A stretch of 64,000 nt of DNA, taken from positions 1,312,001 to 1,376,000 of the forward strand of contig OZ219816.1 of assembly GCA_964291235.2 (NCBI GenBank), read 5' to 3'. The notes beneath the pieces are model-generated. The model ran no database searches, was not told the origin of the DNA, and worked only from the letters and a program-made list of their open reading frames with translations. The translations under genes and the position numbers were made by a program. Origin of the DNA: Vicinamibacteria bacterium. GTDB taxonomy: Bacteria; Acidobacteriota; Vicinamibacteria; Marinacidobacterales; Marinacidobacteraceae. Below, piece after piece: positions 1-26,631 of this stretch; positions within the stretch are counted from its first letter, which is position 1; each line of letters begins with the position of its first letter.

Positions 1-128
1 TAGGGATCATCGTGGGCCCGCTGGTAGGGGCTGCGGTTGCAGTGATCCTGTGCGGCGCGCTGGCGGTGCTCATCAATATCCGCGACCTGCTGGCGGCATC
101 GGCGGACAAGTCGGAATCGGAGTCGTAA
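1..128 (+). CDS. C-terminal end of a membrane protein (runs off the left edge)
   Basis: Frame from position 3 reads GIIVGPLVGAAVAVILCGALAVLINIRDLLAASADKSESES-TAA. It is followed by the hairpin GTGGCCT-GAGA-AGGCCAC (~132-149). Confidence 0.6.
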   Translation, partial: GIIVGPLVGAAVAVILCGALAVLINIRDLLAASADKSESES

Positions 129-230
129 TCGTGGCCTGAGAAGGCCACCGGGGCACATTGTCAGCGGGCGGCGCCGCTGGTGGCGAGAACGCGGGCTGGG
201 AACGGATTCGTCAGGGGCGCCGACGCCGCT

Positions 231-866
231 TTATCCGAACCCCTCGGGCTCGCGGTCATGGTTATCCGAGGATCTGGGTGGCGCCGCGAACATGTGGAGC
301 CAGTCGATCACCTGCGGTCGGCGGATCCCGGAGAAGTGGATCGCGCGGGCCAGTTCGAAGACGGACAGCCGTTCGCGAGACAGGAGTCTCGTGAGATCCC
401 AAGACCGGATACAGCCGAGGACGTGGTAGAGGATGGAGCATTCGCGTTCCGTGGGGGTGGCCGATCGGAAGATGCGGGCGAGTTCGGAACCGCTGGGCCG
501 GTTGGGGTATCCGGCTAGGTGGTCCGCGATGAGAGCGTCGAGCACGGGATGATCTTGGGGCGCCCCCCCTGGTGGCGGCGTGCGGGCTTCCGGATGCGTG
601 AACCAGGACAGAGGCAGAGGGATCCGTGCGGCTCGGTATTCGGGAGGGCAGTCGAGGTTTGAGGTTCGTAGCGGTTTGTCTGGCCCGCCGATCAAGGAGC
701 CGTGCTCGCCGAGCCCTGCGGCTCCTGGATCGCCGCCCCCCGCCAACCACGCCGCCACGACGCGACGTTCGTGGCGGGCGATGTGCTCCTCCCGGGTGAG
801 AAGGCGGCCCGGATCGGCTGGTGGCGGGTTGAAATAGGCATGGCGGAGCCTTGCGATGTCGAGCAC
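231..866 (-). CDS. Hypothetical protein, probable partner/antitoxin of the adjacent AbiEii-type toxin
   Basis: 211 aa ORF starting 2 nt after the toxin stop, with a helical C-terminal half. The function is inferred from position only. Confidence 0.55.
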   Translation of the reverse strand: MLDIARLRHAYFNPPPADPGRLLTREEHIARHERRVVAAWLAGGGDPGAAGLGEHGSLIGGPDKPLRTSNLDCPPEYRAARIPLPLSWFTHPEARTPPPGGAPQDHPVLDALIADHLAGYPNRPSGSELARIFRSATPTERECSILYHVLGCIRSWDLTRLLSRERLSVFELARAIHFSGIRRPQVIDWLHMFAAPPRSSDNHDREPEGFG

Positions 867-868
867 GG

Positions 869-1561
869 TCAGCGCTGCCAGTGGTAGGTTCGGCTGGGCT
901 GCAAGATGGAGCGAACCATGGAGACGGCGTATGCCGCCGCGCCAGGGCGGGCGGGCGCAAGAAGTCGCTGTGGATGGGTTGTCATGAAGTCGCGAGGCAG
1001 GGACCGCAGTTCGGCGCGGATATCCGCCAACTGATCGGGGGAGAACGGTTGGAGGGCGCGCGGGAGCGCTTCTGGCTCGTAATGTTGGGCGACAGCAATG
1101 TCATAGAGGTCGCGCGGGACGAAGGTGTTGTTCCCAAGAATGCGGCCGCCAATCTTGCGCGCGAGGATCTCGGCGCTGGTTTCGAGAGAGATCTGGGTTC
1201 CGCGAACGGTGTCGTCGGAGCGTGGGTTGCCGGTGAAGCCGGGGGTGGTGGAGACGCTGATCTCCCCGCCGTCGGCCAAGATGATCCGAGCGAAGGCAGG
1301 GCCGGTGGTGAGTTCCCGTAGCCCGCCGGTGGCACGGTTGAGGTCACGGCTGAAGGGATCAACGTTGGCGTACAGGAGCGCATAAGGTTCGGATTTGATG
1401 AAGTAGTCGATATCTGTGCTGTGGCGATGGTGCCAGCGGGCGGCGAGCGCGGTGCCGCCGCCGAGGCAGAGATGGTGTTCGCCGCCGAGGTGTTGGCCGA
1501 GAGGCGGCCGGGTAAGTTCCAGGAGTTCGGCGGGGCCGGCCGGAAGCTTGAGGGCGGCCAT
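869..1561 (-). CDS. Nucleotidyltransferase, AbiEii/AbiGii toxin family
   Basis: Signature LGGGTALAARWHHRHSTDIDYF plus the downstream PRDLYDI motif. Confidence 0.85.
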   Translation of the reverse strand: MAALKLPAGPAELLELTRPPLGQHLGGEHHLCLGGGTALAARWHHRHSTDIDYFIKSEPYALLYANVDPFSRDLNRATGGLRELTTGPAFARIILADGGEISVSTTPGFTGNPRSDDTVRGTQISLETSAEILARKIGGRILGNNTFVPRDLYDIAVAQHYEPEALPRALQPFSPDQLADIRAELRSLPRDFMTTHPQRLLAPARPGAAAYAVSMVRSILQPSRTYHWQR

Positions 1562-1565
1562 GGCA

Positions 1566-1829
1566 TCAACGAGCCGCGAGGACTCCGATCTGGACGCCGA
1601 TCCCGATCCCGATGGCCAGCCCGAAGACGAACCGGAAGATCCAGCGGCGGTAGACGGTGCGCCGGTGGCGGCGGAGTTCTGAGCGGAGCTCAGCTGTGGC
1701 TTCGACGATCTCGCGCAGCACCCCGCGGAGGTCCTGGCTGTTCTCGAGGAGGAGCTGGCGCAGGTGGACGTCGCCAGGGCGGGCGGTCTCCGCGAGACTG
1801 TCCGGGAGGGAGAGATCGGAGGGGCTCAT
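1566..1829 (-). CDS. Small coiled-coil protein with a C-terminal TM helix
   Basis: ATG at 1829 overlaps the upstream stop (ATGA). The tail WIFRFVFGLAIGIGIGVQIGVLAAR is hydrophobic. Confidence 0.6.
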   Translation of the reverse strand: MSPSDLSLPDSLAETARPGDVHLRQLLLENSQDLRGVLREIVEATAELRSELRRHRRTVYRRWIFRFVFGLAIGIGIGVQIGVLAAR

Positions 1830-2182
1830 GGGTTCGGGCCCGGGGCGTCGGGCGCGGCCCAGCGCGAACGGCCGTGCTGGTATTTCTGGAGGGTCCCGAT
1901 GGCCTCGCGCAAGGCCTCCGGCGGGAGCGCGGCAAGGGCATGGAGGCCGGCGCGGACGAGTTCGCTCTTGCTGGCCTGGGTGGAGGCGGCGAGACAGCGC
2001 GCCTGGAGGTCGGCGAGCAGCGCGTGGTCGCTGCGGGGGAAGGAGAAGGTGGCGCGGACCGCGGTTTGCGCGGGTGGCGGAGCGGCGGCAACCCGGTCCG
2101 CGGTGTCGAAGCGCTGCTCGACGGCGGCGCTCTCGGCCGCGAGGCTGCGGCCGAGGTTGCCGAGGGGATCTTCGGAGGTCAT
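1826..2182 (-). CDS. ParG-like ribbon-helix-helix centromere-binding/repressor protein
   Basis: Coupled to parA. The pattern VRATFSFPRSDHALLADLQARC..SKSELVRAGL fits strand-helix-helix. Confidence 0.65.
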   Translation of the reverse strand: MTSEDPLGNLGRSLAAESAAVEQRFDTADRVAAAPPPAQTAVRATFSFPRSDHALLADLQARCLAASTQASKSELVRAGLHALAALPPEALREAIGTLQKYQHGRSRWAAPDAPGPNP

Positions 2183-2865
2183 GGTGACGAGTCCTCCTCG
2201 AGGACGTTGAGGATTTCATGGGTGAGGCCGAAGATTTCGGCCTGGGCGAGCTGGGCCCGGGGCACGCCGGCGATGGTGAGGCCGCCCGCGGCGGCATGCC
2301 GGAAGGCTTCGCGGTCCCCGACCTGGGTGTTGAGGACGGGGATCCCGTATTCGGGCAGGAGGTCGCGGGTCTTGGCGGCGAGCCGCGTGCCCGCCTTGCG
2401 CTGGTTGACGACGATCCGGGCCTTGAGGCCGGGGCGCACCTGCACGACGCCGGCGATCACCTGGCGGATGGCGAGGCCGGCCCAGAGGTCGGGAGGCGAC
2501 GGGATGACCGGGACGATGGCGATGTCGGCCACCAGGAGCGCGCTGCGCGAGATGGGCGACTCGGCCGAGGGAGGGCAGTCGACGACGATGAAGTCATGGT
2601 CCTGGAGTTGCGCCCGCAGTTCACCGCGGAGGCGGTCGGCGGCACCGCTGGTGGCGAGAACGCGGGCCGGGAACGGTTTGGACGCCGGCGCCGACTCGGC
2701 CCAGCGGGTCGCCGTTCGCTGGGGATCGGCGTCGGCGACCAGGACGGAGTGGCCGCGGCGGGCGAGTTCGCCCGCCAGGCACATCGTCAGAGTCGTCTTG
2801 CCAGGCCCCCCTTTCTGGTTCACGATGGCGATGATGCGCGCGGCCTGGCTCGGGAGAGTATGCAC
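2179..2865 (-). CDS. parA: Plasmid-type (Ib) ParA partition ATPase
   Basis: IIAIVNQKGGPGKTT deviant Walker A, DADPQ and VDCPP motifs. Likely start is GTG 2865; the longer ORF reads through the repeat cluster. Confidence 0.9.
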   Translation of the reverse strand: MHTLPSQAARIIAIVNQKGGPGKTTLTMCLAGELARRGHSVLVADADPQRTATRWAESAPASKPFPARVLATSGAADRLRGELRAQLQDHDFIVVDCPPSAESPISRSALLVADIAIVPVIPSPPDLWAGLAIRQVIAGVVQVRPGLKARIVVNQRKAGTRLAAKTRDLLPEYGIPVLNTQVGDREAFRHAAAGGLTIAGVPRAQLAQAEIFGLTHEILNVLEEDSSP

Positions 2866-2912
2866 GGTAAATACCGGTATGAAAGCATACCGTATGCAAC
2901 ATACGGTATGCA
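2858..2912. repeat. 55-bp inverted repeat, left copy; CATAC(C/G)GTATG cluster (putative parC/operator)
   Basis: GTATGCACGGTAAATACCGGTATGAAAGCATACCGTATGCAACATACGGTATGCA matches the reverse complement of 3949-4003 at 54/55 positions. Confidence 0.9.
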
Positions 2913-2949
2913 AGGAGTCGTCGGCCGATGTAGGCATAGAATTGACTAC

Positions 2950-3210
2950 ATGGAAGATGGCCTGAGCGCGTCAACCAGAGATCGCCAGGACATAGCCCGG
3001 GCGGAGGGGATCATGGAGCGTCTCCGTCGGGATCTCGATGACTGGTATCGAGCCAGTCAGGGGCGTGTGGGATGGCGTGAGCAGCCGTTGGACGTGGAGG
3101 GGCTGCACCGTCAGGCGCGGGAACTCGCGAACGTCCTGGGACGGGTGCGTCGCCGTCATGCCAAGCGCCGGGAGGCGCGCGAGCGTCGCGGTAGCGTGCT
3201 GGAGGGTTAG
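2950..3210 (+). CDS. Small helical hypothetical protein
   Basis: MEDGLSASTRDRQDIARAEGIMERLRRDLDDWYR...; ends 2 nt before the next gene. Confidence 0.5.
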   Translation: MEDGLSASTRDRQDIARAEGIMERLRRDLDDWYRASQGRVGWREQPLDVEGLHRQARELANVLGRVRRRHAKRREARERRGSVLEG

Positions 3211-3212
3211 CG

Positions 3213-3869
3213 GTGAAGGAATGGACGACCGGCGCAACAGGGATCCGGTACCGCGTCGGAGGCGGCGGCGCACAAGTGGCAATCCCGGAGGGGCAGGCGA
3301 TGGTGGCCGAGGCGGACCGCCTGCTGTATCGTGGGGACGGCGTGACCTGGTCGATGGCCGGATCGGGTGGCGGTTGGGTGCGAGGATGGGTGAACCGGAT
3401 CCAGCGACGGGCCGCCGGCCTGGCGGGCCGGATGAATCTCTACGAGGGACCCGGTGAGGTGGCGTTCGCCGCGGGCGGCGGGGCGGAGGTTCAGGCCGTG
3501 GACCTGGTGAGGGGAGACAGCCTTGTGGTGGCCGCGCCGGCTTTGCTGGCGACGTCGGCCGGCGTTCACGTGGACGTGGCGCTGGTGGAGAAGGTCCGGG
3601 ACGAGGGAGAGCGGCGAACCGTGGTGATGTATAGGGTGACGGGTGAGGGGTTGGTGCTGCTCGCCGCGTTCGGACGTGCGGTGCGGATGGAGCTGGCGCA
3701 AGAGGAGGCGATCGAGGCGGCGGTATGGGGAGTCGCCTGGTATGGCGCGACGGGGGGCTACGAGTTGCGCGTGCTGGGTGGCCGCGGTGGCGGCCACGTG
3801 GCGCGGATCACGGGACCGGCGCGGCTGGTTCTGCAGACGGGGCGGCCGCCGGAGCGTTCGAATGGTTAG
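3213..3869 (+). CDS. AIM24 (TIGR00266)-like protein, divergent
   Basis: Repeated beta units typical of AIM24: MNLYEGPGEVAFA, YRVTGEGLVLLAAFG, ARITGPARLVLQT. Confidence 0.7.
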   Translation: MKEWTTGATGIRYRVGGGGAQVAIPEGQAMVAEADRLLYRGDGVTWSMAGSGGGWVRGWVNRIQRRAAGLAGRMNLYEGPGEVAFAAGGGAEVQAVDLVRGDSLVVAAPALLATSAGVHVDVALVEKVRDEGERRTVVMYRVTGEGLVLLAAFGRAVRMELAQEEAIEAAVWGVAWYGATGGYELRVLGGRGGGHVARITGPARLVLQTGRPPERSNG

Positions 3870-3948
3870 CGGAGGGGATGGCCGGCAGACCACAGGAGAC
3901 GAGGACAGCCTAGGGTGAGCGGTTCTCCGGTGTTGGCGTCTTCGATCG

Positions 3949-4003
3949 TGCATACCGTATGTTGCATACGGTATGCTTTCATACCGGTATTTACGGTGCA
4001 TAC
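3949..4003. repeat. 55-bp inverted repeat, right copy
   Basis: Reverse complement of 2858-2912 with one mismatch. Confidence 0.9.
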
Positions 4004-4041
4004 CGCTTTGGCGGCGGGCGAAGCGCCGGCGGCCGAGACGG

Positions 4042-4590
4042 TCAGGCGTGGGCCAGCGCCAGGCCGACTCCGGCAGCGAGGAGCCAGGCCGAGGCGGCGG
4101 CAGCGATTCCGAGCCGCAGGCGGCGCCGGGAAGGCGGCCGGCCCCGGAGGGTGGCGGCGCTGATCGCTGCCGCGGCGATGGGGAGCAGGGCCGGGAAGAC
4201 GAGGCCAAGCGTGAGGCCTGCGAAGAGGGCGGCCAGGGCCATGGAGACGAGGACCGCGCACGGCGACGCGAGCGGCCCGCCCGGGCAGGGCAGCACGGAG
4301 AACTCCCAACCGGCGGCGATCAGGAGCGCGGCGCCGGCGAACGCCGCCGCGGCCGTGCCGGCGGCATAGACCGCCAGGAAGTGTGCGAAGGGCTCGGCGG
4401 TGCGAGCCTCACCGTGGTACCAGACGCGCGCACCCAGGAGCGCGGCGAACAGCCACGGCCAGGCGGCGGCGCTCGTAAGCATGGTTGCGAGGCGGGAGCC
4501 GGGGTTGCTCCAGGCTGCGACCAGCGCGGCCCAGGCGACCAGGACGCAGGCGACCGAGACCGCGAGCAGGTAGACGGCGGGGCGGGTCAA
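4042..4590 (-). CDS. Multi-pass membrane protein
   Basis: TTG start overlaps the virB11 stop; about five hydrophobic segments. Confidence 0.6.
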   Translation of the reverse strand: MTRPAVYLLAVSVACVLVAWAALVAAWSNPGSRLATMLTSAAAWPWLFAALLGARVWYHGEARTAEPFAHFLAVYAAGTAAAAFAGAALLIAAGWEFSVLPCPGGPLASPCAVLVSMALAALFAGLTLGLVFPALLPIAAAAISAATLRGRPPSRRRLRLGIAAAASAWLLAAGVGLALAHA

Positions 4591-5567
4591 GGTCCGGACG
4601 GCGCGCCCGCTGCGGCGTCCTCGATGATCCAGCTGTTGTCCTCGACCTGCCACCCGCGGACGTAGATCCCGTTCTCGACGACGCGGCGGCCGCGGATGCG
4701 GGCGGTGTGGAGGACGAGGGCGATGCCGTCCACGACGCTGCGGCAGACGACTTCCCAGGGAAGGGCGTCCCGGGCCGCCATGGCGCAGCTCGCGAGCCGG
4801 GAGAGGGCGGAGACGGCCGTGTTGGCGTGGATGGTGGTGAGGCTGCCGCCGTGGCCGGTGTTCAGGGCCTGCAGGAGGTCGGCGGCCTCGGCGCCGCGGA
4901 TCTCGCCGACCACGATGTGGTCGGGCCGATGCCGGAGCGAGTGCTTCACGAGGCTCCGGACGGTGACGGGCCGGGTGTGCGTGTCCGTGGTGTCCGCCTC
5001 GCGGGCCTCGAAGCGCACGGTGTTCGGCTGCTCGATGCGCAGCTCCAGGGTGTCCTCGATCGAGACGATGCGCTCGTCCGGAGGAAGCAGCCCGATGAGG
5101 GCGTTGACGACCGTCGTCTTGCCGGTGCCGGTGCCGCCGGAAACGAGGATGTTCCGCCTGGCGGCGAGGGTGTTCCTGGCGGCCTCGAAGAGCGCAGGAG
5201 GCAGCGAACCGGCCGTGACGAGGTCCTCCGCGGTGAAGGCGCGCTTGCCGAAGCGGCGGATGGTGATGGCGACGTGGGGCGACGCCGGCGGGACGCAGAT
5301 GGCGACGCGGGAGCCGTCCTCGAGACGCGCATCGATGGTCGGCGAAACCGTGGGATCCAGGCCGAGCGGGCGGGCGATGTGGATGGCCGCCCGCTCGAGA
5401 GTGTCCCTGTCGAGCTTCGGGGCGTCGGCGGGGCGGAGCCCCTGCCCTGCCCGCTCGACCCAGACGTTGTGCGGGCCGTTGATCATGAGCTCCGAGACGG
5501 CCATGTCGGCGAAGATGTCCTCCAGGCCGGGGAGGAACGGGCTGAGCCGGTCGATCCCGGTGCTCAT
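4587..5567 (-). CDS. virB11: T4SS traffic ATPase VirB11/TrbB (CpaF-like)
   Basis: SGGTGTGKTT, SIEDTLEL, LRHRPDHIVVGEIRG and NTGHGGSLTTIHA motifs. ATG 5567 overlaps the virD4 stop. Confidence 0.92.
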   Translation of the reverse strand: MSTGIDRLSPFLPGLEDIFADMAVSELMINGPHNVWVERAGQGLRPADAPKLDRDTLERAAIHIARPLGLDPTVSPTIDARLEDGSRVAICVPPASPHVAITIRRFGKRAFTAEDLVTAGSLPPALFEAARNTLAARRNILVSGGTGTGKTTVVNALIGLLPPDERIVSIEDTLELRIEQPNTVRFEAREADTTDTHTRPVTVRSLVKHSLRHRPDHIVVGEIRGAEAADLLQALNTGHGGSLTTIHANTAVSALSRLASCAMAARDALPWEVVCRSVVDGIALVLHTARIRGRRVVENGIYVRGWQVEDNSWIIEDAAAGAPSGP

Positions 5568-7900
5568 ATCTGGCCGGCGGCGCGGGCGCGCCAGTAGGGG
5601 CGGTCGCGCGGGAGGTAGTGGGGCTTGAGATAGACCCGGGTGGCGGGAAGCGCCTGGGCGCCGTCGTAGGCGAGCACGACGGCCTGGCAGTTCTCGAGGA
5701 GCGTGAACTGGCGGGCGTGGAACATCGGCTCGCGCTGTTCGCGGTAGGACTTCGAGGTCCCCAGCGTGCCCTTCGCGCCGCCGGCGCGGGCGGTGATGAG
5801 GGAGAAGCCGGGCTTGGCGGACTCGGTGAAGGAGTAAGAGGGGGAGAGCCGCAGGATCTTGCCGCACATGTTGGAAGCGAGTTCGGCGCTGCTGTCGTCG
5901 CTGAGGGAGAGGAATATCTTGGTCCGGAGCGTCTGCAGGAGGGTGCGCCAGGCGTCCTGTCCGGGAAGCACCGATTTGAGGGAGCTGATGGACTGGGTGG
6001 CGACGATGGGGATGACGCGGCACTGGCGGGTGAGCGCGAAGGCTTTCTCGTCGCCGGAGGGGTCGTCCTCGCCGACGGAGGCGAAGGACTGGTATTCGTC
6101 GCAGAGGAAAACCGCGGGCCGGACGTAGCGGTTGGGGTGCAGCTTCATGGCGGCGGGCCGCTTGAGGAGGCCCTGGAGCCAGGCGTTCTTGAGCATGACG
6201 CCGATGGTGCGGGCGAGGGCGGGGTTGGCCCCGGCCGGCATGTTGAGCGCCACGACCTTGCCGTCCTCGGCGAGCTCCTCGACCGGCGGGAGCGGTTGCA
6301 GGAGTGCGGCGCCGGTGGATGGCGGGGTTCCGGGCGGCGGCGGCGGCAGGTCCGCGGGCGGCGGGGTGCGCGGCCGGGGCCGGTCCGGACAGAAGACGCG
6401 GGCGACCTCTGGGAGGTCGAACATGGAGAGGAAGACGGAGACGCCCTCGACGATGGAGGTGCGGAGCTTGGGGTCGAGCTGGAGCCAGTCGTGCTCGTAC
6501 CAGCGCTGGATGGCGTCGATGCGGAGGGCGTGCTCGGAGCGCGGGCGCTCGGGCGGGTTGTCGACCGTGAACGGCACGCCCAGCGCCGTGAGCGTGTCCT
6601 CGAGTTCCTGGTCGGCAGGAGTGCGGGCGTGACCGTCGCCGCTCTTGGTCCAGGTGCGCCCCTCGCGGAGCTGCGGGTGAGTGACGAAGTCGTCGTTCCT
6701 GACCAGCACGTCGTTGACGGGGGGCGGGTCGCTGAAGGAGCGCGCCCGCGCGAGCTTCCTGCCGATGAGTTCGGTGTCGATCGCGCAGTGATAGAGATCC
6801 CGGAAGGTGCACCAGCGCTCGGGGAGGGCGCGGTGCAGCTCGATGAGCCAGCGGATGAGGTTGGTGTATGCCTGCTGCCAGAAGGGCTCCTTGGACTTGC
6901 CGAAGAGCTGGTTGAGGAGGGTGGCGACGGTGTAGGCGAGGGAGTAGCTGTCCATGTCGGACGCGAGGGGGTTCCACTGCCAGCGTCCGCCGATGCCGAG
7001 TTCGAGGTAGTCGTCGGGCCGGCCGGCGTGCTCCAGGACGGCGCGGATGTCGTGGCAGAAGTCGCCCTTGACTTCGAGGACGAGTCCGGCCGCGCGGCGG
7101 GCGGGATCGTCGGCCTGCCAGGAGAGGAGCTGGTCGGCGAAGGGGCGCATGCAGGCGGAGGTCTTGCCGGTGCCGACGGCCCCGAAGATGGCGATGCCGG
7201 TGAAGAGGCCGCGTTCGGGCAGCGTGAGCCACTCCGGCCGGGTGGTCTCCTTGGCCTCGGTGGGGTGGTGGAGTTCCCCGACCACGAGAGAGGGGGCGGG
7301 GTCCTGGGGGCCATTGGGCCAGGGGGGCAGGACGCCGCGCCCGGGGAGGCGGCGGTTTGCCGGGGAATCGAGCCAGAGGCGCCGAATGCTGGTGGCGATG
7401 AGGAGCCCCCCGCCGGCGACGACGGCGGGAGCCACGAGAAACCACCCGCGGATGACGTTGTAGAAGACGGGGTCCTCGAGGGCGATGAGGTCGAGGAGGG
7501 GCACCTCGCCGGGCGCGGGGAAAGAGCGGGAGAGGATGGACCAGGCGAGCGCCGCGAGTCCGAGGACGATGGCGACGACGGTGCGCCAGGAGAGGAGCCG
7601 GCCCAGCGATGCCTCGGAGTTGCGTAGGCGCAAAACCGCCCACGAGAAGATCCGTCCCAGCGCGCGACGGAGGTCCGGTGCGAGCCAGAATGCGAGCAGG
7701 GCGAGGGAGAAGGCCCCGAGGGCGGGGCCGGCGTAGAACCAGGCCCGGAGGAGCTGGTAACCGAAGGGATCCTTGAGCGCGACGAGGTCGAGGAGCGGGA
7801 CGGCGCCCTCGGCCGGGAACCCGCCCTGGCGGACGATGACGAGGAGCGCCAGGATCGCGGCGGCCGCCGGAAAGAGGAAGCGCGGCGAGGAGAGCGTCAT
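5564..7900 (-). CDS. virD4: Type IV coupling protein (VirD4/TraD-like)
   Basis: N-terminal TM segments, GAVGTGKTS Walker A, LVLEVKGDF, FLCDEYQSF Walker B and VATQS. Start is 7900 or 7921. Confidence 0.88.
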   Translation of the reverse strand: MTLSSPRFLFPAAAAILALLVIVRQGGFPAEGAVPLLDLVALKDPFGYQLLRAWFYAGPALGAFSLALLAFWLAPDLRRALGRIFSWAVLRLRNSEASLGRLLSWRTVVAIVLGLAALAWSILSRSFPAPGEVPLLDLIALEDPVFYNVIRGWFLVAPAVVAGGGLLIATSIRRLWLDSPANRRLPGRGVLPPWPNGPQDPAPSLVVGELHHPTEAKETTRPEWLTLPERGLFTGIAIFGAVGTGKTSACMRPFADQLLSWQADDPARRAAGLVLEVKGDFCHDIRAVLEHAGRPDDYLELGIGGRWQWNPLASDMDSYSLAYTVATLLNQLFGKSKEPFWQQAYTNLIRWLIELHRALPERWCTFRDLYHCAIDTELIGRKLARARSFSDPPPVNDVLVRNDDFVTHPQLREGRTWTKSGDGHARTPADQELEDTLTALGVPFTVDNPPERPRSEHALRIDAIQRWYEHDWLQLDPKLRTSIVEGVSVFLSMFDLPEVARVFCPDRPRPRTPPPADLPPPPPGTPPSTGAALLQPLPPVEELAEDGKVVALNMPAGANPALARTIGVMLKNAWLQGLLKRPAAMKLHPNRYVRPAVFLCDEYQSFASVGEDDPSGDEKAFALTRQCRVIPIVATQSISSLKSVLPGQDAWRTLLQTLRTKIFLSLSDDSSAELASNMCGKILRLSPSYSFTESAKPGFSLITARAGGAKGTLGTSKSYREQREPMFHARQFTLLENCQAVVLAYDGAQALPATRVYLKPHYLPRDRPYWRARAAGQI

Positions 7901-7929
7901 GGGAGCGGCCCGCTCGGGCATGCGTAAGC

Positions 7930-19760: not shown

Positions 19761-19773
19761 GGCTCAGCGCCGA

Positions 19774-19818
19774 CCGTATGCACGGTCAATACCGGATGTC
19801 GTCATACGATGCATACGA
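19774..19818. promoter_or_regulatory. GTATG/CATAC cluster between virB2 and virB3
   Basis: GTATGCACGGTCAATACCGG (19776-19795) matches 2858-2877 at 19/20 positions. Confidence 0.65.
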
Positions 19819-19846
19819 GCACTAGTCCCTGTTGGCGGTGGGCGCT

Positions 19847-20143: not shown

Positions 20144-20165
20144 GGCAGGGACCTCCTGGTCTGGA

Positions 20166-20483
20166 CTATTCGGTGAAGTCGCCCTGCTCCTGTTCGGCAA
20201 GGCGGCGGGAAAGCTCGGGATCGCCGTCGCCGCGGCGCACCGAGCGCTCCGCGAGGTCGACCTTCCGGCCGATGTCGTAGAGGCCCAGGCTCCGCAGGAT
20301 CCCCGCGGCGGCGACGACGGCGGCGAGGAACGCGCTCCCCGCGTAGGCGGTGACCGGCCACCAGTACTCGGTGACGATGACCCGCCGGTAGGGGGCCAGA
20401 TAATCAAAGTGCGACGCCGCGAAGAAGACGACGGCGGCCGTGAGGGCGACGCCGACGCCGAGGCTGATCTTCCAGGGATGCAC
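20166..20483 (-). CDS. Small two-TM hypothetical protein
   Basis: Two hydrophobic helices and a charged tail; fills the gap before virB2. Confidence 0.6.
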   Translation of the reverse strand: MHPWKISLGVGVALTAAVVFFAASHFDYLAPYRRVIVTEYWWPVTAYAGSAFLAAVVAAAGILRSLGLYDIGRKVDLAERSVRRGDGDPELSRRLAEQEQGDFTE

Positions 20484-20484
20484 G

Positions 20485-21387
20485 TCAGATCTCCATGAGT
20501 TCCGGCGGCCGCGGGTCGCGCCCGCTGCCCCCCCGCTGTGGTCTTGCCGCCTCCCGGAACGCCTTCGCGACCTTCGCGATCATCCGCCCGGCCTTGCCGT
20601 TCGCGCCGTGGAGCGCGAACCCGGCGGCGGCCTTGGCCGCGACCGCGCCCGCGTTGTAGTGCTAGGTGGTGACCTCGATGTTCACCCGCCCGAACGTGTC
20701 GCGGCCGCCGGCATCGGCGGCGGCGTATTCGAGCTGCGCGTCCGGGAAGGACACCGCCCCCTCCGGAGTGTGGGGGAGTCCGAGTTCGGCGGCCGCGCGA
20801 CGCCGTTCCTGGTCCGCGGCCTCGCGCCCCGCCCGGGCGCGGGCCCGTTCGCTCCGCCGCACCACGGCGCTCCGCAGCTCGGCGTCGAGCCGGACGCGGA
20901 CCGCCGTGACGCCCTTCGCGGCGAGTTCCTCCCGGGCGGCCAGGACCGCGCGGTAGACGGCGACGTCGTGCGCGAGGTTCTTGCGGCGTTCGATCCCGCT
21001 CCAGAAGCGCTGGTCCTCGGCGTAGCCGCGGTCGGCCGCGGCGTCCCCGGCCTCCCTCGCGCCTTTCGGGGTGGCGGCCAACACGGTGAAGGAGCCACCG
21101 TTGGGGCCGTCGGCCTGGTGCTCCGTCACGAGGCCCTCGCGCTTGAGCCGGTTGATGCCGGCGCGCGCGGCGAAGGGGTGGCCGTCGAAGTGCACGTCCG
21201 CGATGTCCCGGTAGGCCACGGCGCGGTGCGCGCTGATGTCCGCGAGCGCGCCTTTCTCGCGCCGGACGCGGCCGCGGGACCCGCCCTCCCGGGTCCCCTG
21301 TTCCCGGCGGTGGCCCGAGCGCCGCAGTTCGCGGTCGCGGAGGACTTCCGGCCGGTCGGGGCGGCGGGGTTCGGGACGACGGCTCAT
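20485..21387 (-). pseudogene. Replication-relaxation (MOBC-like, PD-(D/E)xK) relaxase with an in-frame TAG at 20662-20664
   Basis: wHTH-like N-terminus, LAHDVAVY and FPDAQLEY..VNIEVTT-TAG-HYNAGAVAAKAAAGF. The frame continues 58 codons to TGA at 20485, 1 nt before the next gene. Confidence 0.6.
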
Positions 21388-21396
21388 CGACGGGGA

Positions 21397-22392
21397 TCAG
21401 CGCCCGGGCGTCATCGCCGGCGCCTGGCGCTGGGCCACGGGGGGCGGAGGAGTCTGGGGAGCACGCTCGGGCGTCGCCCCATCGCGCGCGGCGCGCGCCT
21501 CGCGGGCGATGTCCCGTAGCTCGCCGCGGGCTGGCTTGATGAGGTTCCGCGCGATGCGGTGCCCCTCGGAGGCCGCCCGGTGCATCTCCCGCGGGTCCTC
21601 CCTAAGCGCCTTGAGCCAGGCCTGTTTGTGTTCGTCGCCGTGGTCGGGTTGATAACCGATCCCCAGGCGGTCGCCAGCGGTCATGGTGGCGATCTCGACG
21701 CGGAGTTTTTCGCGGATGTGCCCGTCGCCGTCGAGACCCTCGCTGTGGGTCTGCTTGAAGGTCTCGCGGGCCATCCGGCTCTCATGTCCGGAGGCGTGCG
21801 CCATGTTCCGGAGCGCGGTGCTGTAGTAGTGCTCCGGGCTCCGGAACTGCTTCCGCTCGGGCAGGACCACCTGGTCGTGGTCCTTGCTGTAGTAGTTCTG
21901 GTCGCCGGGGGAGTGCTTGATCTCGACGGCGGAGGCGGCGATCACGGCGTCGGCGCCGCGGTGCGCCTGCCAGTCCGGACGCCGCGGCCGCCGGTCGAGC
22001 TTCAGGCCGCGCACCTGCTCCACGTTGTAGACGATGGAGGTGCGCCAGAGCGGCTTCTGCCCGTTGCGGTCGTCGCGGAAGAGGATCCGTTCGCCCGGGC
22101 CCTTCGGCGGCTGGCCGCCCGCCTTCTTGATCTGGGCGTTCGTGATCCAGCGGTTGTCGGTGAACCCGCGGTCCTGGCCGCGGCTGGCCAGGTAGAGCGC
22201 GTTGCCGCCGGTATAGGCGCGGCCGGTGACGGCGTTCCGGGGCAGGACGGGCTCACCGGCCTTCGCTGCGCGCTGCCAGGGCGCGGTGCCGGCCTCCATC
22301 TGCCGGATGGCGGTCTCGGCGAACTTCCCGTAGTAGCGGCTGGGCGAGTCGATCGCGGGCTTCGGGGAGGGAGAGGTTTTGGCTTCAGCCAT
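21397..22392 (-). CDS. ardC: ArdC-like ssDNA-binding/antirestriction protein with a degenerate zincin motif
   Basis: GTAPWQR, PRNAVTGRAYTGGN and DNRWIT; STALRNMAHASGH in place of HExxH. Confidence 0.85.
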   Translation of the reverse strand: MAEAKTSPSPKPAIDSPSRYYGKFAETAIRQMEAGTAPWQRAAKAGEPVLPRNAVTGRAYTGGNALYLASRGQDRGFTDNRWITNAQIKKAGGQPPKGPGERILFRDDRNGQKPLWRTSIVYNVEQVRGLKLDRRPRRPDWQAHRGADAVIAASAVEIKHSPGDQNYYSKDHDQVVLPERKQFRSPEHYYSTALRNMAHASGHESRMARETFKQTHSEGLDGDGHIREKLRVEIATMTAGDRLGIGYQPDHGDEHKQAWLKALREDPREMHRAASEGHRIARNLIKPARGELRDIAREARAARDGATPERAPQTPPPPVAQRQAPAMTPGR

Positions 22393-22473
22393 GTTGGTTG
22401 CTCCTGGTTCAGGGGTTCGGGACAGCGAGTCGTAGAGCGCCGCCGCGGTGGTCCGGAACGGCGTGTTCGCTGT

Positions 22474-23550
22474 TCATCGTCCGGGCGTCAGGGCCGGCTG
22501 TTGGCGCGCGGGCGTGGGAGGCGTGATGCCGGGCACGCGCATCTCAGTTGCATCCGGAGGCGTGGGGCTGTCGCGCCCGACCTGCTGGATACGTTCCCTG
22601 GCGGGCTCCAGCAGATAACGGGAGATCCGTTCCGCTTCGGCAGCCGCGCGGTAGATCTCGCGAGGTTCGTCGGAAAGAGCCTTGATCCAGCTCTTGACGT
22701 ACGCGGCGCTGTTGCCGTGGCCGCCACGGGGCAGGTGGCCGACGCCGATCCGCTCGCCGGCCATCATGGCGCTGATCTCGGCGCGGAGTTCCTCGCGGGC
22801 GTAGGCGGGGCTGCCGAAACCGGCCTGTACGCCGTTGTAGAAGGTCTTCCGGTCCATGCGGGTCTGATGGCCGGACGCATGGGACAGTTCGTGAAGGGCG
22901 GTTGCGTAGTAGGCCTCCGCGCTGGGGAACTGGCCGCGCGCCGGCAGGACGATCTGGTCGGCCTGCGGGCTGTAGTAGGCGCGGTCGCCCGCGACGTGCC
23001 TGATCGGGACCTTGGCCGTTTCGATGACGGCTTCGGCGGCTTGATGCGCCTGCCAAGCCGCGACCGCCGCTTGCCGTGGGGGAAGGTCCAGATCACGGGT
23101 CTGTTCGACGTTGAACACGGTGTAGACGCGTTGCAAAGGGAATCGTTGTTCGGGGCGTTCATAGACCGGCCGGCCCTCCCCATCGACCAGGTGGCGTCCG
23201 GCTTGGTCCTTCTTCGGAACGAGTTTCTGGGTCCGGAAGAAGACAATGTGTTCGCCTCGTTCGCCCTTGCGGACGTGGCCTCCGGCTTCCCTGATCTGGC
23301 GGTATGTCGCCCAGCGGTTGTCGGTGAACCCGCGCTCCGGACCGCGAAGGGAGAGACGGAGAGCGTTGCCTCCGGTGTAGGCATTGCCGGTGATGGCGTT
23401 CCGGGGTAGCGCCTGCTCGCCAGGCTTCCAGGGACGCTGCCAGGGTGCAGTGCCCGCCTCGATCTGCTTGACGATCGCGGCGGCGAATTGCTCGTGATAT
23501 TCGGTGATGCGGTCCCGCCCGCGGGGAGTGTTGGCTTTGGCAGCGGCCAT
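22474..23550 (-). CDS. ardC: ArdC antirestriction protein (ssDNA-binding plus zincin domain)
   Basis: PWQRPW, YTGGN, RWATYRQI..HVRKGE, TVFNVEQ, ATALHELSHASGH and YAREELRAEI. Confidence 0.92.
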   Translation of the reverse strand: MAAAKANTPRGRDRITEYHEQFAAAIVKQIEAGTAPWQRPWKPGEQALPRNAITGNAYTGGNALRLSLRGPERGFTDNRWATYRQIREAGGHVRKGERGEHIVFFRTQKLVPKKDQAGRHLVDGEGRPVYERPEQRFPLQRVYTVFNVEQTRDLDLPPRQAAVAAWQAHQAAEAVIETAKVPIRHVAGDRAYYSPQADQIVLPARGQFPSAEAYYATALHELSHASGHQTRMDRKTFYNGVQAGFGSPAYAREELRAEISAMMAGERIGVGHLPRGGHGNSAAYVKSWIKALSDEPREIYRAAAEAERISRYLLEPARERIQQVGRDSPTPPDATEMRVPGITPPTPARQQPALTPGR

Positions 23551-23580
23551 GTTGGTTTCTCGCCGGGCGCGGGGGGGGCG

Positions 23581-23799
23581 TCAGTCCCGGTCTTCGTCGG
23601 CCAAATCCAGGAGCTCAGCTGGAAGTTCGCCGAACTCGATGGGGTCGCCGTTCTCGTCGGCGCCGGGGACCCCGAAGGCCGCGATGACCTCGCGTGGGGC
23701 GGCGATGGGCAGCCCACGGTCGAACACGCGAGCGAACTCCTCCTCGGTGTCGACGCTGAGGGCGGGCTTGCCCTCGACGATGATTTCTCGGATTGCCAT
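23581..23799 (-). CDS. Small acidic hypothetical protein
   Basis: 72 aa with 19 D/E versus 6 K/R; RBS AAGGAG. Confidence 0.6.
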   Translation of the reverse strand: MAIREIIVEGKPALSVDTEEEFARVFDRGLPIAAPREVIAAFGVPGADENGDPIEFGELPAELLDLADEDRD

Positions 23800-23816
23800 A
23801 GGTGCTCCTTCCGCGG

Positions 23817-24712
23817 TTAGCGGGATGGCTGCGCCCGCGCCTGCGGGCGCTGGATGTCGAGGAATGCCTTGCGGGTGGTCCGCTCGGCGTAGTAGTGGGG
23901 GTCGTGCTTTTCGCCGGCGCGGCGCTTCTCGAGCGCGGCGATGACCCTCTCCTGGGGGACTCCCTTGCGGAGCTGGTCCTTCGCATAGGCCCAGTCCCGG
24001 GCGGACTGGCTGGTGTCCCGGCCCTCAATCTGACGGCCGGGGGCGGGAGAGCGGTTTGGGGAAAGCTCCACCCTGGGTAGATGCGCGAACGCATGGGGGT
24101 GTGTCGCGCGGCCGGCGTGGTCGGTCCAGCGCACGGGCGCATCGTCCCGCTCCGGCTTCTTGTTGCGGAAGCCCGGGAGCCGCATCACGCGCGCAACGTC
24201 GGCCACCGAGGAGTCCCCGCCGTATTCGGCCGCCAGGCGGCGCATGGTGTCCTCCGCCTCCGGAGCCGTCCAGGCGTCCGGATCCGCGTGCCAGATCACC
24301 TGGTAGTTGTGGCGCGAACTCCGGACCACAGCCGCAGGCGGGGGCAGGGAACCGGCATGCACGTCGGCGAGGACGCGGTGGAGGGACTTGGGGCCGTTGC
24401 GGTCCAGGTCGAGCTGAAGGCGGCGCACCTTCGCCACGTCCTGCTTCTCGCGGCGGCGCCGCTGTGGGTTGACGGGGTTCATCGACACGAAGATGTCGTA
24501 GCCCTGGGCGTTCAGGGCACGAAGCCACGCCTGGAACTTCGGCGCAGTGACGGCTCGCACCTGTCGGATTCGCTGTTCCGGGTGGCGCTCTGCGACCCGG
24601 TCGATCGCGACTAAGGCGAGATGTTCAGTGTCAGCGGGATAGAGCGTCCGGATATACGCCGTGGCCTGGTCCGGATCTTGCGGTGTGTGTGTGTGTGTGT
24701 GTGTGTGGTCAC
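23817..24712 (-). CDS. RepB'-type (RSF1010-like) DNA primase; 5' end interrupted by a (GT)12 tract
   Basis: LNAQGYDIFVSMNP, LQLDLD, VRSSRHNYQVIW, GGD..ARVMRLPGFRNKK and DTSQSARDW. The frame is open upstream of 24560 up to the repeat; the GTG at 24712 is 2 nt out of frame. Confidence 0.8.
24683..24707. repeat. (GT)12G dinucleotide microsatellite
   Basis: Read directly from the sequence. Confidence 0.97.
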
Positions 24713-24838
24713 GGGTTTTGGGTTCGGAACCGGTTATCTATCACACTCCGGGTGGTGATGGCGAATTCGGACACCTGCTCTGGCGACAGTCCGGGTGTTA
24801 CTGAGCCGGTCGGCTGAGCTTTTCGCGTTCGTAGTTGA

Positions 24839-24912
24839 CCCGCCGCGCTAGCGGCGGGAGAGGAAGGGGCCGCGAAGCGGAGCCCGACCGGAGGCGCGCG
24901 ACGAAGTCGCGC
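24839..24912. other. Cluster of short hairpins, putative ssi/primase site of oriV
   Basis: CCCGCCGC-GCTA-GCGGCGGG, CCGC-GAA-GCGG and GCGCGAC-GAA-GTCGCGC, between the iterons and the primase gene. Confidence 0.45.
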
Positions 24913-25068
24913 TCGATGGCACCATCAGGCGGGTGAGGTTAGGGCGGGAGGCCGGATTTTCAAGTCCGGCCGACAGGCCCTTTTTTTCTCCTCCCCCCCT
25001 CCGAAGGGTCGGGGTAGGGGAAGGAGCGAACGGAAGTCATTGGTTTTGCGCGTAAATTCGGGCAAGAA

Positions 25069-25176
25069 CGTGACCGGAGTACACGTCCAGCGTGACCGGA
25101 GTACACGTCCAGCGTGACCGGAGTACACGTCCAGCGTGACCGGAGTACACGTCCAAGCGTGACCGGAGTACACGTC
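25069..25176. repeat. Five tandem 22-bp iterons (putative oriV)
   Basis: CGTGACCGGAGTACACGTCCAG x3, one 23-bp copy and one 19-bp copy, ending 28 bp from the stop of the putative rep. Confidence 0.9.
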
Positions 25177-25204
25177 GCCTAAGCGGGGACGGATTTGCGA
25201 CGTT

Positions 25205-26620
25205 TCAGTCGTCGCTGTCGTTGACGTGTGTCGTTGGCGGGAGGATCCGGCCAGGCGTGATACGGCCGACAGCGCCGGCCTCGTGGAGCGTGGAAAGAAT
25301 GCGTCGGATTCGCTCAAGACGCTTGCGTCTCCCAGGGGCCGAAACGGTGTCGCCCGACGGGTAGAAGAGAGCCATGAGATCCGCGGGGGTGAGCGGGTGA
25401 TAGCGCTCCGGATCGTCGGCATGCCGCCAGTGGACGATCTTCTTGTTGCGGCGGATCGGATAGAGGGTCTTGCCGGGTTTGTGCCATTGGTAGGCGAGCC
25501 CGATCAGGCCGCGATAGGCGAGTGCGGACCGCGCGCCCCAGTAGCGGAGGCGAGGCATGTCCACGGCGGGGCCGTTCTCGGATCCGGGCGGGTAGAGGAC
25601 GCGCACGTGGAAACGCGAGTCGAGGCCGGCGCCGATGGCAGGGGGCAAGGCCTCGAGCGAGATGACGCGGCGGTCCGTTGGATCGCCGGTTGCCGGGTCG
25701 AGCCAGCGGACCCTTGCGGCGTCCGAGTCGTAAAAACGGAGGGCTTCGCGAAGCGCGGGCCAATCCCGCCCCACGCGCCAATTGGCGGCTCCGTTCTGCC
25801 GGAGCCAGTTGACGAGATCCCGGACCGTGAACTCAAGCAGCGCCCCATCCCGGTGGTCCCGCCGGTCGAGCGGCACGGCCGCGAGAAACTCCGTCCCGAG
25901 CCGCAGGTTGATCGGGGCGGCGGAATGCCCGCCGCCGCCTGCGAAGGTAGGCCCGCCTGCACGGTCGAAGGCGGCAAGCCAGGCGGGGATCTGCACCGTG
26001 GGCGCGCGCGGGTCAGAGAATCCCGGCAGTGTCGGCGCAGGATCGCTCGGCGCGCTGAGCGAAGCCGGCAGGGATTGCTGTTGGGAATGCACGCCAGCGG
26101 CGGGCATCATCAGGGTGCCCGCCGGCAGGATGGGGTCTTTCCGGACGGTCGGGAGGACGGGAAAAGCGGCCTGGACGACTTCGTCCAGCACGGATCTGCT
26201 GCGCTGGGGATCAGCCCAGATGTTGCTCATCTGTTCGAGCAGGAAGCGCCAGGCTTCGCCATGCTCGAGAACCTTCTGGTGCCAGACGTGCTTCCGGGAG
26301 AAGTCCTCCAGAATCGGAAGGCTGGCGAGCTGCTGCGCGAGATTCCGGAGCCGCGTGGCCGGCTGCCCGTACGGGTCGACGGCGTTGTTCCAGCGCTTCA
26401 GGCGGTGGGGGTTGAGCGCCTCCTGGAACACGCGGCGCGAATACTGGGTTGCGATCGAGAGGAGGAGTTTCCGGCGCTGCCGGAAAGCCTCTCGGTCGGA
26501 GGGAGTAGCGTTCGGGGCAGCCCGGTCCGCGAGTATGGCGTCGAGCGCCTGCGGCTCGCCCGGGCGGCGACGCGCCGGATCTTCACCGGAAGTCGCTTTC
26601 GCGACTTCCGATAATGATGC
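25205..26620 (-). CDS. Putative replication initiator (Rep); frame open from the dif spacer, first usable start GTG 26431
   Basis: Adjacent to the iterons, with wHTH-like segments (FTVRDLVNWL..WPALREAL; RIRRILSTLHEAG). There are 63 stop-free codons upstream of 26431, up to TAA at 26621-26623. No family match could be verified. Confidence 0.6.
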   Translation of the reverse strand, partial: ASLSEVAKATSGEDPARRRPGEPQALDAILADRAAPNATPSDREAFRQRRKLLLSIATQYSRRVFQEALNPHRLKRWNNAVDPYGQPATRLRNLAQQLASLPILEDFSRKHVWHQKVLEHGEAWRFLLEQMSNIWADPQRSRSVLDEVVQAAFPVLPTVRKDPILPAGTLMMPAAGVHSQQQSLPASLSAPSDPAPTLPGFSDPRAPTVQIPAWLAAFDRAGGPTFAGGGGHSAAPINLRLGTEFLAAVPLDRRDHRDGALLEFTVRDLVNWLRQNGAANWRVGRDWPALREALRFYDSDAARVRWLDPATGDPTDRRVISLEALPPAIGAGLDSRFHVRVLYPPGSENGPAVDMPRLRYWGARSALAYRGLIGLAYQWHKPGKTLYPIRRNKKIVHWRHADDPERYHPLTPADLMALFYPSGDTVSAPGRRKRLERIRRILSTLHEAGAVGRITPGRILPPTTHVNDSDD

Positions 26621-26631
26621 TTATGTAAAGT
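26604..26631 (+). other. dif: dif site (XerC arm - 6-bp spacer - XerD arm)
   Basis: ACTTCCGATAA-TGATGC-TTATGTAAAGT, compared with B. subtilis dif ACTTCCTAGAA-TATATA-TTATGTAAACT. It coincides with the G/C skew switch and the mobile/core boundary. Confidence 0.88.

What the first reader, a model, noticed from the sequence alone, without database searches (positions are those of the whole stretch)
1..26631. Integrase-less conjugative replicon sitting at the chromosomal dif site (IMEX-type ICE)
Seen: a plasmid-like backbone (Rep, iterons, primase, relaxase-like gene, VirB/D4, parA, TA) ends exactly at a 28-bp dif-like site. Housekeeping genes begin 40 bp later, and no recombinase or tRNA lies at the junction. 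Known: CTX-phi, TLC and the gonococcal genetic island use host XerCD at dif. Inference: this is a XerCD-exploiting conjugative element with its own iteron replicon, which I do not recognise as described in this kind of host.
Basis: partly seen in the sequence, partly recalled or inferred. Interest (0 to 1): 0.85.

Follow-up and report, generated by a model that had tools for sequence, protein, structure and literature searches.

The report
Conjugative plasmid-like element inserted at dif
A 29.5-kb transferable plasmid-like element sits exactly at the chromosome's dimer-resolution site (dif) of an Acidobacteria genome, much like the gonococcal genetic island, but it does carry a recombinase gene of its own just outside the window.

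Summary
Window 26604-26631 is a genuine dif: it lies at the GC-skew maximum, is unique in the genome, is conserved at this locus across the genus, and closely matches published dif sites. The element begins 2.9 kb left of the window, at a second site in direct orientation. That site keeps the XerC arm and central region (23 bp identical) but has no XerD arm. Of the 16 genus genomes, 7 show the two flanks adjacent and 7 carry this element family.

"Integrase-less" is wrong. An intact Xer-like tyrosine recombinase under purifying selection lies about 1 kb inside the left end. Its family, however, typically has its own palindromic ATAA-N6-TTAT site just upstream (34 of 64 loci). That site is intact inside the six integrated elements examined for it, and 50-53% identical homologs sit on free plasmids. 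It therefore looks like a plasmid multimer-resolution module.

The deduced attachment site has the architecture published for the gonococcal island and TLC-phi. My best reading is host XerCD integration (about 0.55). The rival is integration by the element's own recombinase (about 0.3). No relaxase was found. The iterons are real, but the Rep assignment is unproven. This is a new variant of a known kind, of moderate interest.

The parts
1..26599 (.). In-window body of the integrated element. The element starts outside the window at C2:1309057 (2,943 bp left of window base 1). The part left of the window holds left site L1 (C2:1309061-1309088), fossil site L2 (C2:1309094-1309121), a 79-aa ORF, the tyrosine recombinase (C2:1310033-1311097, minus strand) and its palindromic site (C2:1311365-1311392).
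869..1561 (-). AbiEii-type nucleotidyltransferase toxin. The upstream ORF 231-866 is its presumed partner but matches no family.
   Evidence: PF08843, 2.8e-08
2179..2937 (-). ParA-family partition ATPase
   Evidence: AAA_31 1.8e-21, CbiA, MipZ, VirC1
4587..5651 (-). VirB11-like traffic ATPase (start codon approximate)
   Evidence: T2SSE 1.5e-44; frame deduced
5564..7921 (-). VirD4-like coupling protein
   Evidence: TrwB_AAD_bind, TraG-D_C
11761..12426 (-). VirB8
   Evidence: 1e-15
12440..13570 (-). VirB6/TrbL
   Evidence: 1.9e-12
14560..15840 (-). VirB10/TrbI
   Evidence: 2.4e-37
16148..17104 (-). VirB9/CagX (start approximate)
   Evidence: 4e-22
17035..19686 (-). VirB4 ATPase
   Evidence: P-loop_TraG 4.6e-15, AAA_10
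21397..22392 (-). ArdC-like antirestriction/zincin protein, copy 1
22474..23550 (-). ArdC-like protein, copy 2
23817..24560 (-). RepB-type (IncQ-like) primase
   Evidence: PF16793, 4.6e-24
25069..25193 (.). Five direct 22-bp iterons (CGTGACCGGAGTACACGTCCAG), a putative oriV
25205..26431 (-). Orphan 408-aa protein (P0002). It is a Rep candidate by position only.
26600..26622 (+). Right copy of the 23-bp direct repeat CGCGACTTCCGATAATGATGCTT. The left copy is at C2:1309057-1309079. The crossover lies within it.
26604..26631 (+). Chromosomal dif (attR): XerC arm ACTTCCGATAA, central TGATGC, XerD arm TTATGTAAAGT

Best explanation
A 29.5-kb conjugative-plasmid-like element is integrated by site-specific recombination inside the chromosomal dif. 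It carries a VirB/D4 T4SS, ParA, an iteron origin, a primase, ArdC and a toxin-antitoxin pair, and it is one of seven related elements in this Acidobacteria genus.

The crossover lies within the XerC arm plus central region. To the right it regenerates a complete dif. To the left it leaves a hybrid site made of the chromosomal XerC arm, the central region and an element-derived arm that is not a XerD arm. The deduced attachment site is therefore a half-dif mimic of the gonococcal-island or TLC-phi type.

I infer that host XerC and XerD carry out the integration. The element's own Xer-like tyrosine recombinase most likely acts on its own palindromic site 268 bp upstream of its gene, resolving multimers of the free plasmid form. 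The missing XerD arm at the left site would then keep the integrated state stable, as published for the gonococcal island.

Shown: location, boundaries, empty sites, sister elements, gene content, and the recombinase with its adjacent site. Inferred: which recombinase does the integration, and whether the element still replicates and transfers.
For: dif identity. The site lies at the GC-skew maximum and is unique in the genome. It is conserved at the same locus in six empty-site relatives whose sequence I read. Its XerD arm matches the E. coli arm at 9 of 11 positions, and the genus form TTATGTTAAAT matches at 11 of 11. It resembles the Myxococcus and Anaeromyxobacter dif sites listed in PMC2731167.

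Boundaries. The only other match in the genome is a direct copy that is identical for 23 bp and then diverges.

Population. Of 16 genus genomes including this one, 7 have the two flanks adjacent (one by spacing only). Seven carry the family element with a recombinase of at least 84% identity next to the left flank. Two have other inserts.

Attachment sites. All seven left sites are XerC arm, central region, then RT[AC][AC]GGT[CT]. The five sister right sites I read are an element end, then GCTTCCGATAA, the central region and the chromosomal XerD arm. This is the architecture published for difGGI and TLC attP.

Host enzymes. The host has a XerD that passes the TIGR02225 cut-off (333.6 against 329.6 bits). 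It also has a XerC-like protein scoring 326 bits on TIGR02224 (cut-off 335) and 313.6 bits on the PRK00283 tyrosine-recombinase subfamily (cut-off 279).

The element's recombinase has another site. Of 83 loci examined, 64 had at least 500 bp upstream, and 34 of those 64 have an exact ATAA-N6-TTAT palindrome within 900 bp upstream. The background is 10 sites in 638,539 bp. In this genome and in the five sister elements whose recombinase loci I scanned, that site is intact although the elements are integrated (G007 not scanned past the gene). Homologs of 50-53% identity lie on free circular plasmids and on a phage-plasmid. [quoted passage not shown]

Weak hint of excision. In four runs, contigs stop at 26622 and restart at 26600, the exact repeat borders. 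Other neighbouring contigs overlap by 30 bases.
Against: The recombinase is intact: R200, K229, H303, R306, H329 and Y338 are present. It is under purifying selection, with dN/dS of 0.04-0.18 in 15 pairs. It is present in all seven elements and lies 1 to 4.5 kb from the left end, as an integrase would.

The left arm of its internal site is 8 to 10 of 11 identical to the host XerC arm (GCTTCGGATAA against GCTTCCGATAA in two sisters). It could therefore bind dif itself.

The attachment site has no XerD arm, and no XafT-like (DUF3653) activator was found in the genome.

No experiment shows Xer dependence. The contig pattern can also arise from mixed strains.
Confidence: 0.55

Rival explanations
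1. This is an ordinary integrative conjugative element whose own Xer-like tyrosine recombinase is the integrase. Its attB happens to be the XerC half of dif. The recombinase acts alone, or paired with host XerC or XerD in a hybrid synapse.
For: An intact, conserved recombinase under purifying selection lies near the left end in all seven elements. The arms of its internal site resemble the XerC arm at 8 to 10 of 11 positions. The inner part of the element-side arm at the left site (RT[AC][AC]GGT[CT]) is conserved even where the flanks diverge. No XafT-like factor is present.
Against: The element-side arm of attP bears no likeness to the arms of the recombinase's own palindrome (2 of 11 by my reading). 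The palindrome next to the gene, which is the usual place of an attP, is intact in the integrated state. The closest named homologs sit on autonomous plasmids. The attP architecture equals that of XerCD-dependent elements.
Confidence: 0.3
2. The element is a fixed fossil. It entered once in an ancestor, or spread among relatives by homologous recombination of the flanks, and no longer excises, replicates or transfers.
For: No relaxase was found. The left site lacks a XerD arm. No contig that I could see shows a circular junction.
Against: Each of the 24 genes I called in the window genome gave an uninterrupted open reading frame, and 22 of them have homologs in at least one sister element. The recombinase is under purifying selection. 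Presence and absence are mixed among 16 species-level genomes. The Rep-iteron module and the central regions differ between elements, which implies continuing exchange. The contig breaks fall exactly at the repeat borders.
Confidence: 0.1

Closest known systems
Gonococcal genetic island (GGI) of Neisseria
   Same: Both are large T4SS-encoding islands with ParA, inserted between the chromosomal dif and a dif-like site. That site has a good XerC arm and central region but a degenerate XerD arm (passages of PMC6744903 and PMC5357621). The attL and attR layout here is the same.
   Different: The phylum differs (Acidobacteria titles). The T4SS here is VirB/D4-type, and no MOBH TraI_2 relaxase was found. 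This element has an iteron origin with a primase and its own Xer-like recombinase with an adjacent site. I did not test sequence homology to GGI genes.
TLC-phi type IMEX of Vibrio cholerae
   Same: The attachment site has a XerC arm and central region like dif, but a XerD arm that binds XerD poorly.
   Different: TLC-phi is a small satellite phage and needs the XafT (DUF3653) activator. No DUF3653 was found in this genome.
Plasmid-borne and single-recombinase Xer modules (XerS/difSL, XerH/difH, large-plasmid resolution systems)
   Same: The recombinase gene lies directly next to its palindromic dif-like site (passages of PMC5357621). Here this holds for 34 of 64 family loci.
   Different: The recombinase is only 25-26% identical to the host XerC and XerD. 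It scores far below the NCBIfam Xer cut-offs (110 against 330 bits). It is carried on a mobile element rather than serving the chromosome.
LME-1 of Legionella
   Same: It is a mobile element whose att site is a partial dif mimic. It regenerates one intact and one modified dif, which stabilises integration.
   Different: LME-1 is phage-like and uses a single host recombinase, XerL.

Membership tests
IMEX (integrative mobile element exploiting Xer) | Integrated at the chromosomal dif | tested here: met
IMEX (integrative mobile element exploiting Xer) | The attachment site mimics dif, and integration leaves one intact dif and one modified dif | tested here: met
   attP was deduced from attL and attR, not observed.
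IMEX (integrative mobile element exploiting Xer) | No recombinase of its own | tested here: not met
   An intact tyrosine recombinase lies at C2:1310033-1311097. Its likely cognate site is internal and was not used for integration.
IMEX (integrative mobile element exploiting Xer) | Integration catalysed by host XerC/XerD | not testable with these tools
   Only the presence of the host xerD and of a XerC-like gene is shown.
TLC-phi-like IMEX | XafT (DUF3653) activator | tested here: not met
   0 matches in the genome, which is 90% complete by marker genes
Integrative conjugative element | Mating-pair T4SS plus coupling protein | tested here: met
   VirB4, B6, B8, B9, B10, B11 and D4
Integrative conjugative element | Relaxase | tested here: not met
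   None in the ORF scans. No hit inside the element for PF03432, PF08751, PF07514 or PF03389. Several ORFs remain unassigned, so a novel relaxase is possible.
Integrative conjugative element | Excision to a circular form | tested here: inconclusive
   Only contigs were available. They break at the repeat borders, but no junction was seen.
Gonococcal genetic island family | MOBH TraI_2 relaxase (homology of the other T4SS genes to GGI was not tested) | tested here: not met
   (TraI_2 not found). The T4SS here matches VirB-type families.
IncQ-like iteron replicon | Direct iterons next to the initiator gene | tested here: met
   5 x 22 bp at 25069-25193. Sister element G005 has 4.9 x 21 bp in the same position.
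IncQ-like iteron replicon | RepB primase | tested here: met
   PF16793, 4.6e-24
IncQ-like iteron replicon | RepC-type initiator | tested here: inconclusive
   P0002 has no Pfam or NCBIfam hit. One Atlas cluster at rank 30 has RepC on 15% of its members, with recognition below the useful level. The AlphaFold2 model had a mean pLDDT of 41.5.
Recombinase-plus-adjacent-site Xer-like module | Palindromic 11-6-11 site next to the recombinase gene | tested here: met

The most novel reading that the evidence does not exclude
A replicating conjugative plasmid family outside the Proteobacteria enters and leaves the chromosome through host XerCD using a half-dif attachment site, while keeping a private single-recombinase Xer-like module for its own multimers.

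The copy in this genome carries two tandem half-dif sites 33 bp apart with different central regions. TGATGC matches this host's dif, and GGATGA matches the dif of most of the genus. This would be a dual-specificity attachment site that widens the range of dif alleles it can enter. A bolder variant is that the element's recombinase replaces XerD on the degenerate arm in a hybrid XerC-Int synapse.
Probability: 0.2. Interest if true: 0.8.

Novelty: new variant of a known kind. Interest (0 to 1): 0.55.

Why it matters
The finding pins down the dif site of an Acidobacteria genus, a phylum in which my searches found no described dif-exploiting element.

It would be a second kind of T4SS-bearing element at dif after the gonococcal island. 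It is found in 7 of 16 species-level genomes, with matching empty sites, which makes a good natural system for asking how large elements exploit dif.

It carries both a half-dif attachment site and a private Xer-like recombinase with its own site. It therefore allows a direct test of whether mobile elements divide labour between host Xer (integration) and their own recombinase (plasmid resolution), or mix the two.

An integrated conjugative plasmid at the terminus could also mobilise chromosomal DNA in the manner of an Hfr strain.

Tried and rejected
Structure of the Rep candidate P0002. AlphaFold2 on a 6-sequence alignment gave a mean pLDDT of 41.5, too poor for a fold search, so I ran none. 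The Atlas search gave only unnamed clusters and one weak RepC lead. A homolog search found 5 proteins with no names or Pfam domains. BLASTP of P0002 against the 443-aa protein in the same position in G005 was not significant (E = 0.72).

Relaxase. None was found. The two PF03432 hits lie elsewhere on C2.

XafT/DUF3653. None was found.

Free attP. A scan of viral contigs with the left-site motif found nothing. The closest metagenome relatives of the recombinase (65% identity, L041-L045) have no XerC-arm-like site in the parts I held. One of them, L043, shares VirB4, ArdC and the primase in a different order. I could not check whether its contig is circular.

Reads. Only assembled contigs were served for the four runs that hold this stretch, so rare circular or empty-site junctions could not be seen. 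Depth ratios were not used.

Other inserts at the locus. The G004 insert is an IS256/Mutator transposase cluster with a giant adhesin, not a dif-exploiting element. The G001 3.4-kb insert has no clear genes.

Origin of the double left site (L1 and L2). I considered tandem integration, imprecise excision from a former host, and cointegration with a second plasmid. None fits all the junctions, so this is left unexplained.

A dif on contig C1. None was found at 8 or fewer mismatches or as ATAA-N6-TTAT.

Literature. Searches found no paper on a dif-inserted conjugative element in Acidobacteria; one search returned 0 papers with all four terms.


Full report
WHERE THE WINDOW LIES. The window is G000:C2:1312001-1376000. 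The assembly has two contigs of 1.34 and 2.11 Mb. Related contigs bear Acidobacteria MAG titles.

THE OBSERVATION. Window 1-26600 is a block of mostly minus-strand genes.
- Pfam identifies AbiEii, ParA, AIM24, VirD4 and VirB8.
- Pfam also identifies VirB6/TrbL, VirB10/TrbI, VirB4, two ArdC genes and a RepB-type primase.
- After I worked out the frames from codon-position GC content, VirB11 and VirB9 were also found.
- Five 22-bp direct repeats lie at 25069-25193, next to the 3' end of a 408-aa orphan gene.
- No tRNA lies in window 1-30000 or in the 18 kb around the left end.
- No relaxase family was detected in the ORFs. Six-frame searches with four relaxase families gave no hit inside the element.

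THE dif SITE. ACTTCCGATAA TGATGC TTATGTAAAGT lies at 26604-26631.
- It sits at the cumulative GC-skew maximum of C2, about 1.34 Mb.
- It is the only full-length match in the genome and one of only three ATAA-N6-TTAT sites in 3.45 Mb.
- The same site, with small changes (RCTTCCGATAA GGATGM TTATGTTAARW), lies between the same flanking genes in relatives.
- Published dif sites listed in PMC2731167 (passages) include E. coli GGTGCGCATAATGTATATTATGTTAAAT and Myxococcus AGGTCCGATAACATGCGTTATGTAAACT. The XerD arm here matches these at 9 and 10 of 11 positions.
- The host encodes a XerD that passes the TIGR02225 cut-off. It also encodes a XerC-like protein that scores just under the XerC cut-off but passes the PRK00283 tyrosine-recombinase subfamily cut-off.
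- I regard the dif assignment as secure.

THE LEFT END. The only other match to the dif in the genome is at C2:1309061, which is 2,939 bp left of the window, in direct orientation. Counting the four bases before the arm, it is identical for 23 bp and then diverges: ACTTCCGATAA TGATGC TTCCCTTGGCT. The element therefore spans 29,543 bp.

Thirty-three bp further in lies a second half-site, ACTTCCGATAA GGATGA GTACGGTCGAG.

RELATIVES. The two flanks were searched in 31 genomes. I judged adjacency only for the 16 genomes of the genus, including this one.
- In seven genomes the flanks are adjacent: G002, G003, G008, G009, G010, G013 and G014. For six of these I read a single dif. G002 is judged by spacing only.
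- In G005, G006 and G011 the flanks are 35-37 kb apart. The insert is 67-89% identical in nucleotides to this element over the aligned blocks (80-88% over the longest ones), and 22 of my 24 gene calls have homologs there.
- In G007, G012 and G015 the flanks lie on different contigs. A recombinase of at least 84% identity and a left site lie on the left-flank contig, and a right site with an element-type end lies on the right-flank contig.
- The element family thus occupies dif in 7 of 16 genomes.
- G004 has an IS256-type transposase cluster with a 2121-aa adhesin at the locus. G001 has a 3.4-kb insert with no clear genes.

THE ATTACHMENT SITES. All seven left sites read: chromosomal flank, XerC arm, central region, then RT[AC][AC]GGT[CT]. 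The five sister right sites I read are: an element end (such as ...gtgcggagcca), then GCTTCCGATAA, the central region and the chromosomal XerD arm.

The deduced attP therefore has a host-like XerC arm and central region and a degenerate XerD arm. This is how difGGI and the TLC-phi attP are described (passages of PMC6744903 and PMC5357621).

In G006 and G012 the central regions of the left and right sites differ by one base.

In this genome the inner half-site (L2) matches the sister elements' left sites. The outer one (L1) shares the host's TGATGC central region with the right-hand dif. The Rep-iteron module and the last bases before the dif are also specific to this genome. Sister G005 has a different 443-aa gene and 21-bp iterons in the same position.

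THE RECOMBINASE. A 355-aa tyrosine recombinase lies at C2:1310033-1311097 on the minus strand, 969 bp from the left site.
- Pfam Phage_integrase scores 5e-20.
- NCBIfam XerD scores 110 bits, against a cut-off of 330.
- It is 25-26% identical to the host XerC and XerD, and all catalytic residues are present.
- dN/dS among six copies is 0.04-0.18.
- 'Integrase-less' is therefore refuted.

Three results suggest it is not a classical integrase for these ends.
1. A palindromic site lies 268 bp upstream of its start. As printed on the plus strand it is GGGTGCGATAA TCCTTT TTATCCGAACC at C2:1311365. It is one of the three ATAA-N6-TTAT sites in the genome. It is conserved and intact in the five sister elements whose recombinase loci I scanned (G005, G006, G011, G012, G015), although they are integrated. 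In G007 the stretch I fetched ends within about 270 bp upstream of the gene and showed no such site.
2. I examined 83 loci holding relatives: 80 metagenome loci, one MAG and two plasmids. Of these, 64 had at least 500 bp upstream, and 34 of those 64 have such a palindrome within 900 bp upstream, mostly 70-150 bp from the conserved core. The background in the same loci is 10 sites in 638,539 bp. Nineteen loci were dropped for lack of upstream sequence.
3. Homologs of 50-53% identity lie on free circular plasmids of Planctomycetes and on a phage-plasmid.

A recombinase gene next to its own site is the usual layout of large-plasmid resolution systems and of XerS and XerH modules (PMC5357621).

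Against this, the left arm of the internal site is 8-10 of 11 identical to the host XerC arm. The protein might therefore also bind dif.

EXCISION. Four runs of one study hold the stretch, but only as contigs. In all four, one contig ends at 26622 and the next starts at 26600, an overlap of 23 bases equal to the direct repeat. Other neighbouring contigs overlap by 30 bases, for example 29477-29506 in X2 and 25400-25429 in X3.

In a k = 31 graph (the k value is recalled, not from a call) this is what is expected if the reads also contain the repeat joined to other flanks, as in attP and an empty dif. A mixture of strains would give the same pattern, and variant positions in the flank show that mixtures are present. 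I count this as a hint only.

VERDICT. The element is a plasmid-like conjugative element at dif, with GGI-like ends. Host XerCD integration is the best-supported mechanism (0.55). Integration by the element's own recombinase, alone or with a host Xer protein, is the main rival (0.3). The element is not a sequence relative of GGI as far as tested. It fails the strict IMEX criterion of having no recombinase. I file it as a new variant of a known kind.

TOOLS THAT WERE CLOSED. Supplementary files of papers were closed; tables of dif sites there might list Acidobacteria.

Noticed in passing
L001 12770-13080 (C2:1308770-1309080), just left of the element: A tandem array of about 130-bp units lies here: 3 units in this genome and more in G006. 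It is full of XerC-arm-like motifs in both orientations, including pseudo-dif palindromes such as ACTTCGGATAA-N11-TTATCGGATGT. It is conserved beside dif in relatives with empty sites. Its function is unknown.
   Followed up: partly
window 26575-26622 and the same place in relatives (L003, L004, L006, L008, L016, L017): Every chromosomal dif in the genus is preceded by an inverted copy of its XerC arm 4 bp away (ATCCTTATCGAAAGTCGC-N4-GCGACTTCCGATAAGGAT). This genome's element carries a similar palindrome at its right end.
   Followed up: partly
C2:1309094-1309121 (outside the window, 33 bp right of the left site): A second half-dif has the central region GGATGA. It matches the left sites of the sister elements and sits next to the active site, which has TGATGC. 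It may be a fossil of an earlier integration or a second specificity.
   Followed up: partly
contig C1 of the genome (1.34 Mb): No dif-like site was found at 8 or fewer mismatches or as ATAA-N6-TTAT, although xerC lies on C1. I could not tell whether C1 is a separate replicon.
   Followed up: partly
window 1-19000: GC skew is about +0.2 on the plus strand, so the coding strand of the minus-strand T4SS genes is strongly C-rich.
   Followed up: no
C2:233818-236864 and C2:759452-761826 (outside the window): PF03432 relaxase hits lie near other tyrosine integrases. These are probably other integrative mobilisable or conjugative elements.
   Followed up: no
L022 (G004:C1:2887500-2903000): Between the same dif flanks, G004 has three IS256/Mutator-family transposase genes (plus a fourth 420-aa ORF of the same size that I did not scan) and a 2121-aa fn3/cadherin-repeat protein.
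   Followed up: partly
window 24683-24707 and L028 16801-16828: A (GT)12-14 microsatellite lies between the primase gene and the iterons in both this element and the G005 sister.
   Followed up: no
L037 (Paludisphaera plasmid PALBO2) 19754 and 22336: Two ATAA-N6-TTAT sites with the same central region, CGCCCT, flank the homologous recombinase gene on this free plasmid.
   Followed up: no
window 10074-11747: A 557-aa ORF inside the T4SS cluster matches the fused MFS/spermidine-synthase subfamily (NF037959, 9.8e-31). This is an odd passenger for a conjugation operon.
   Followed up: no
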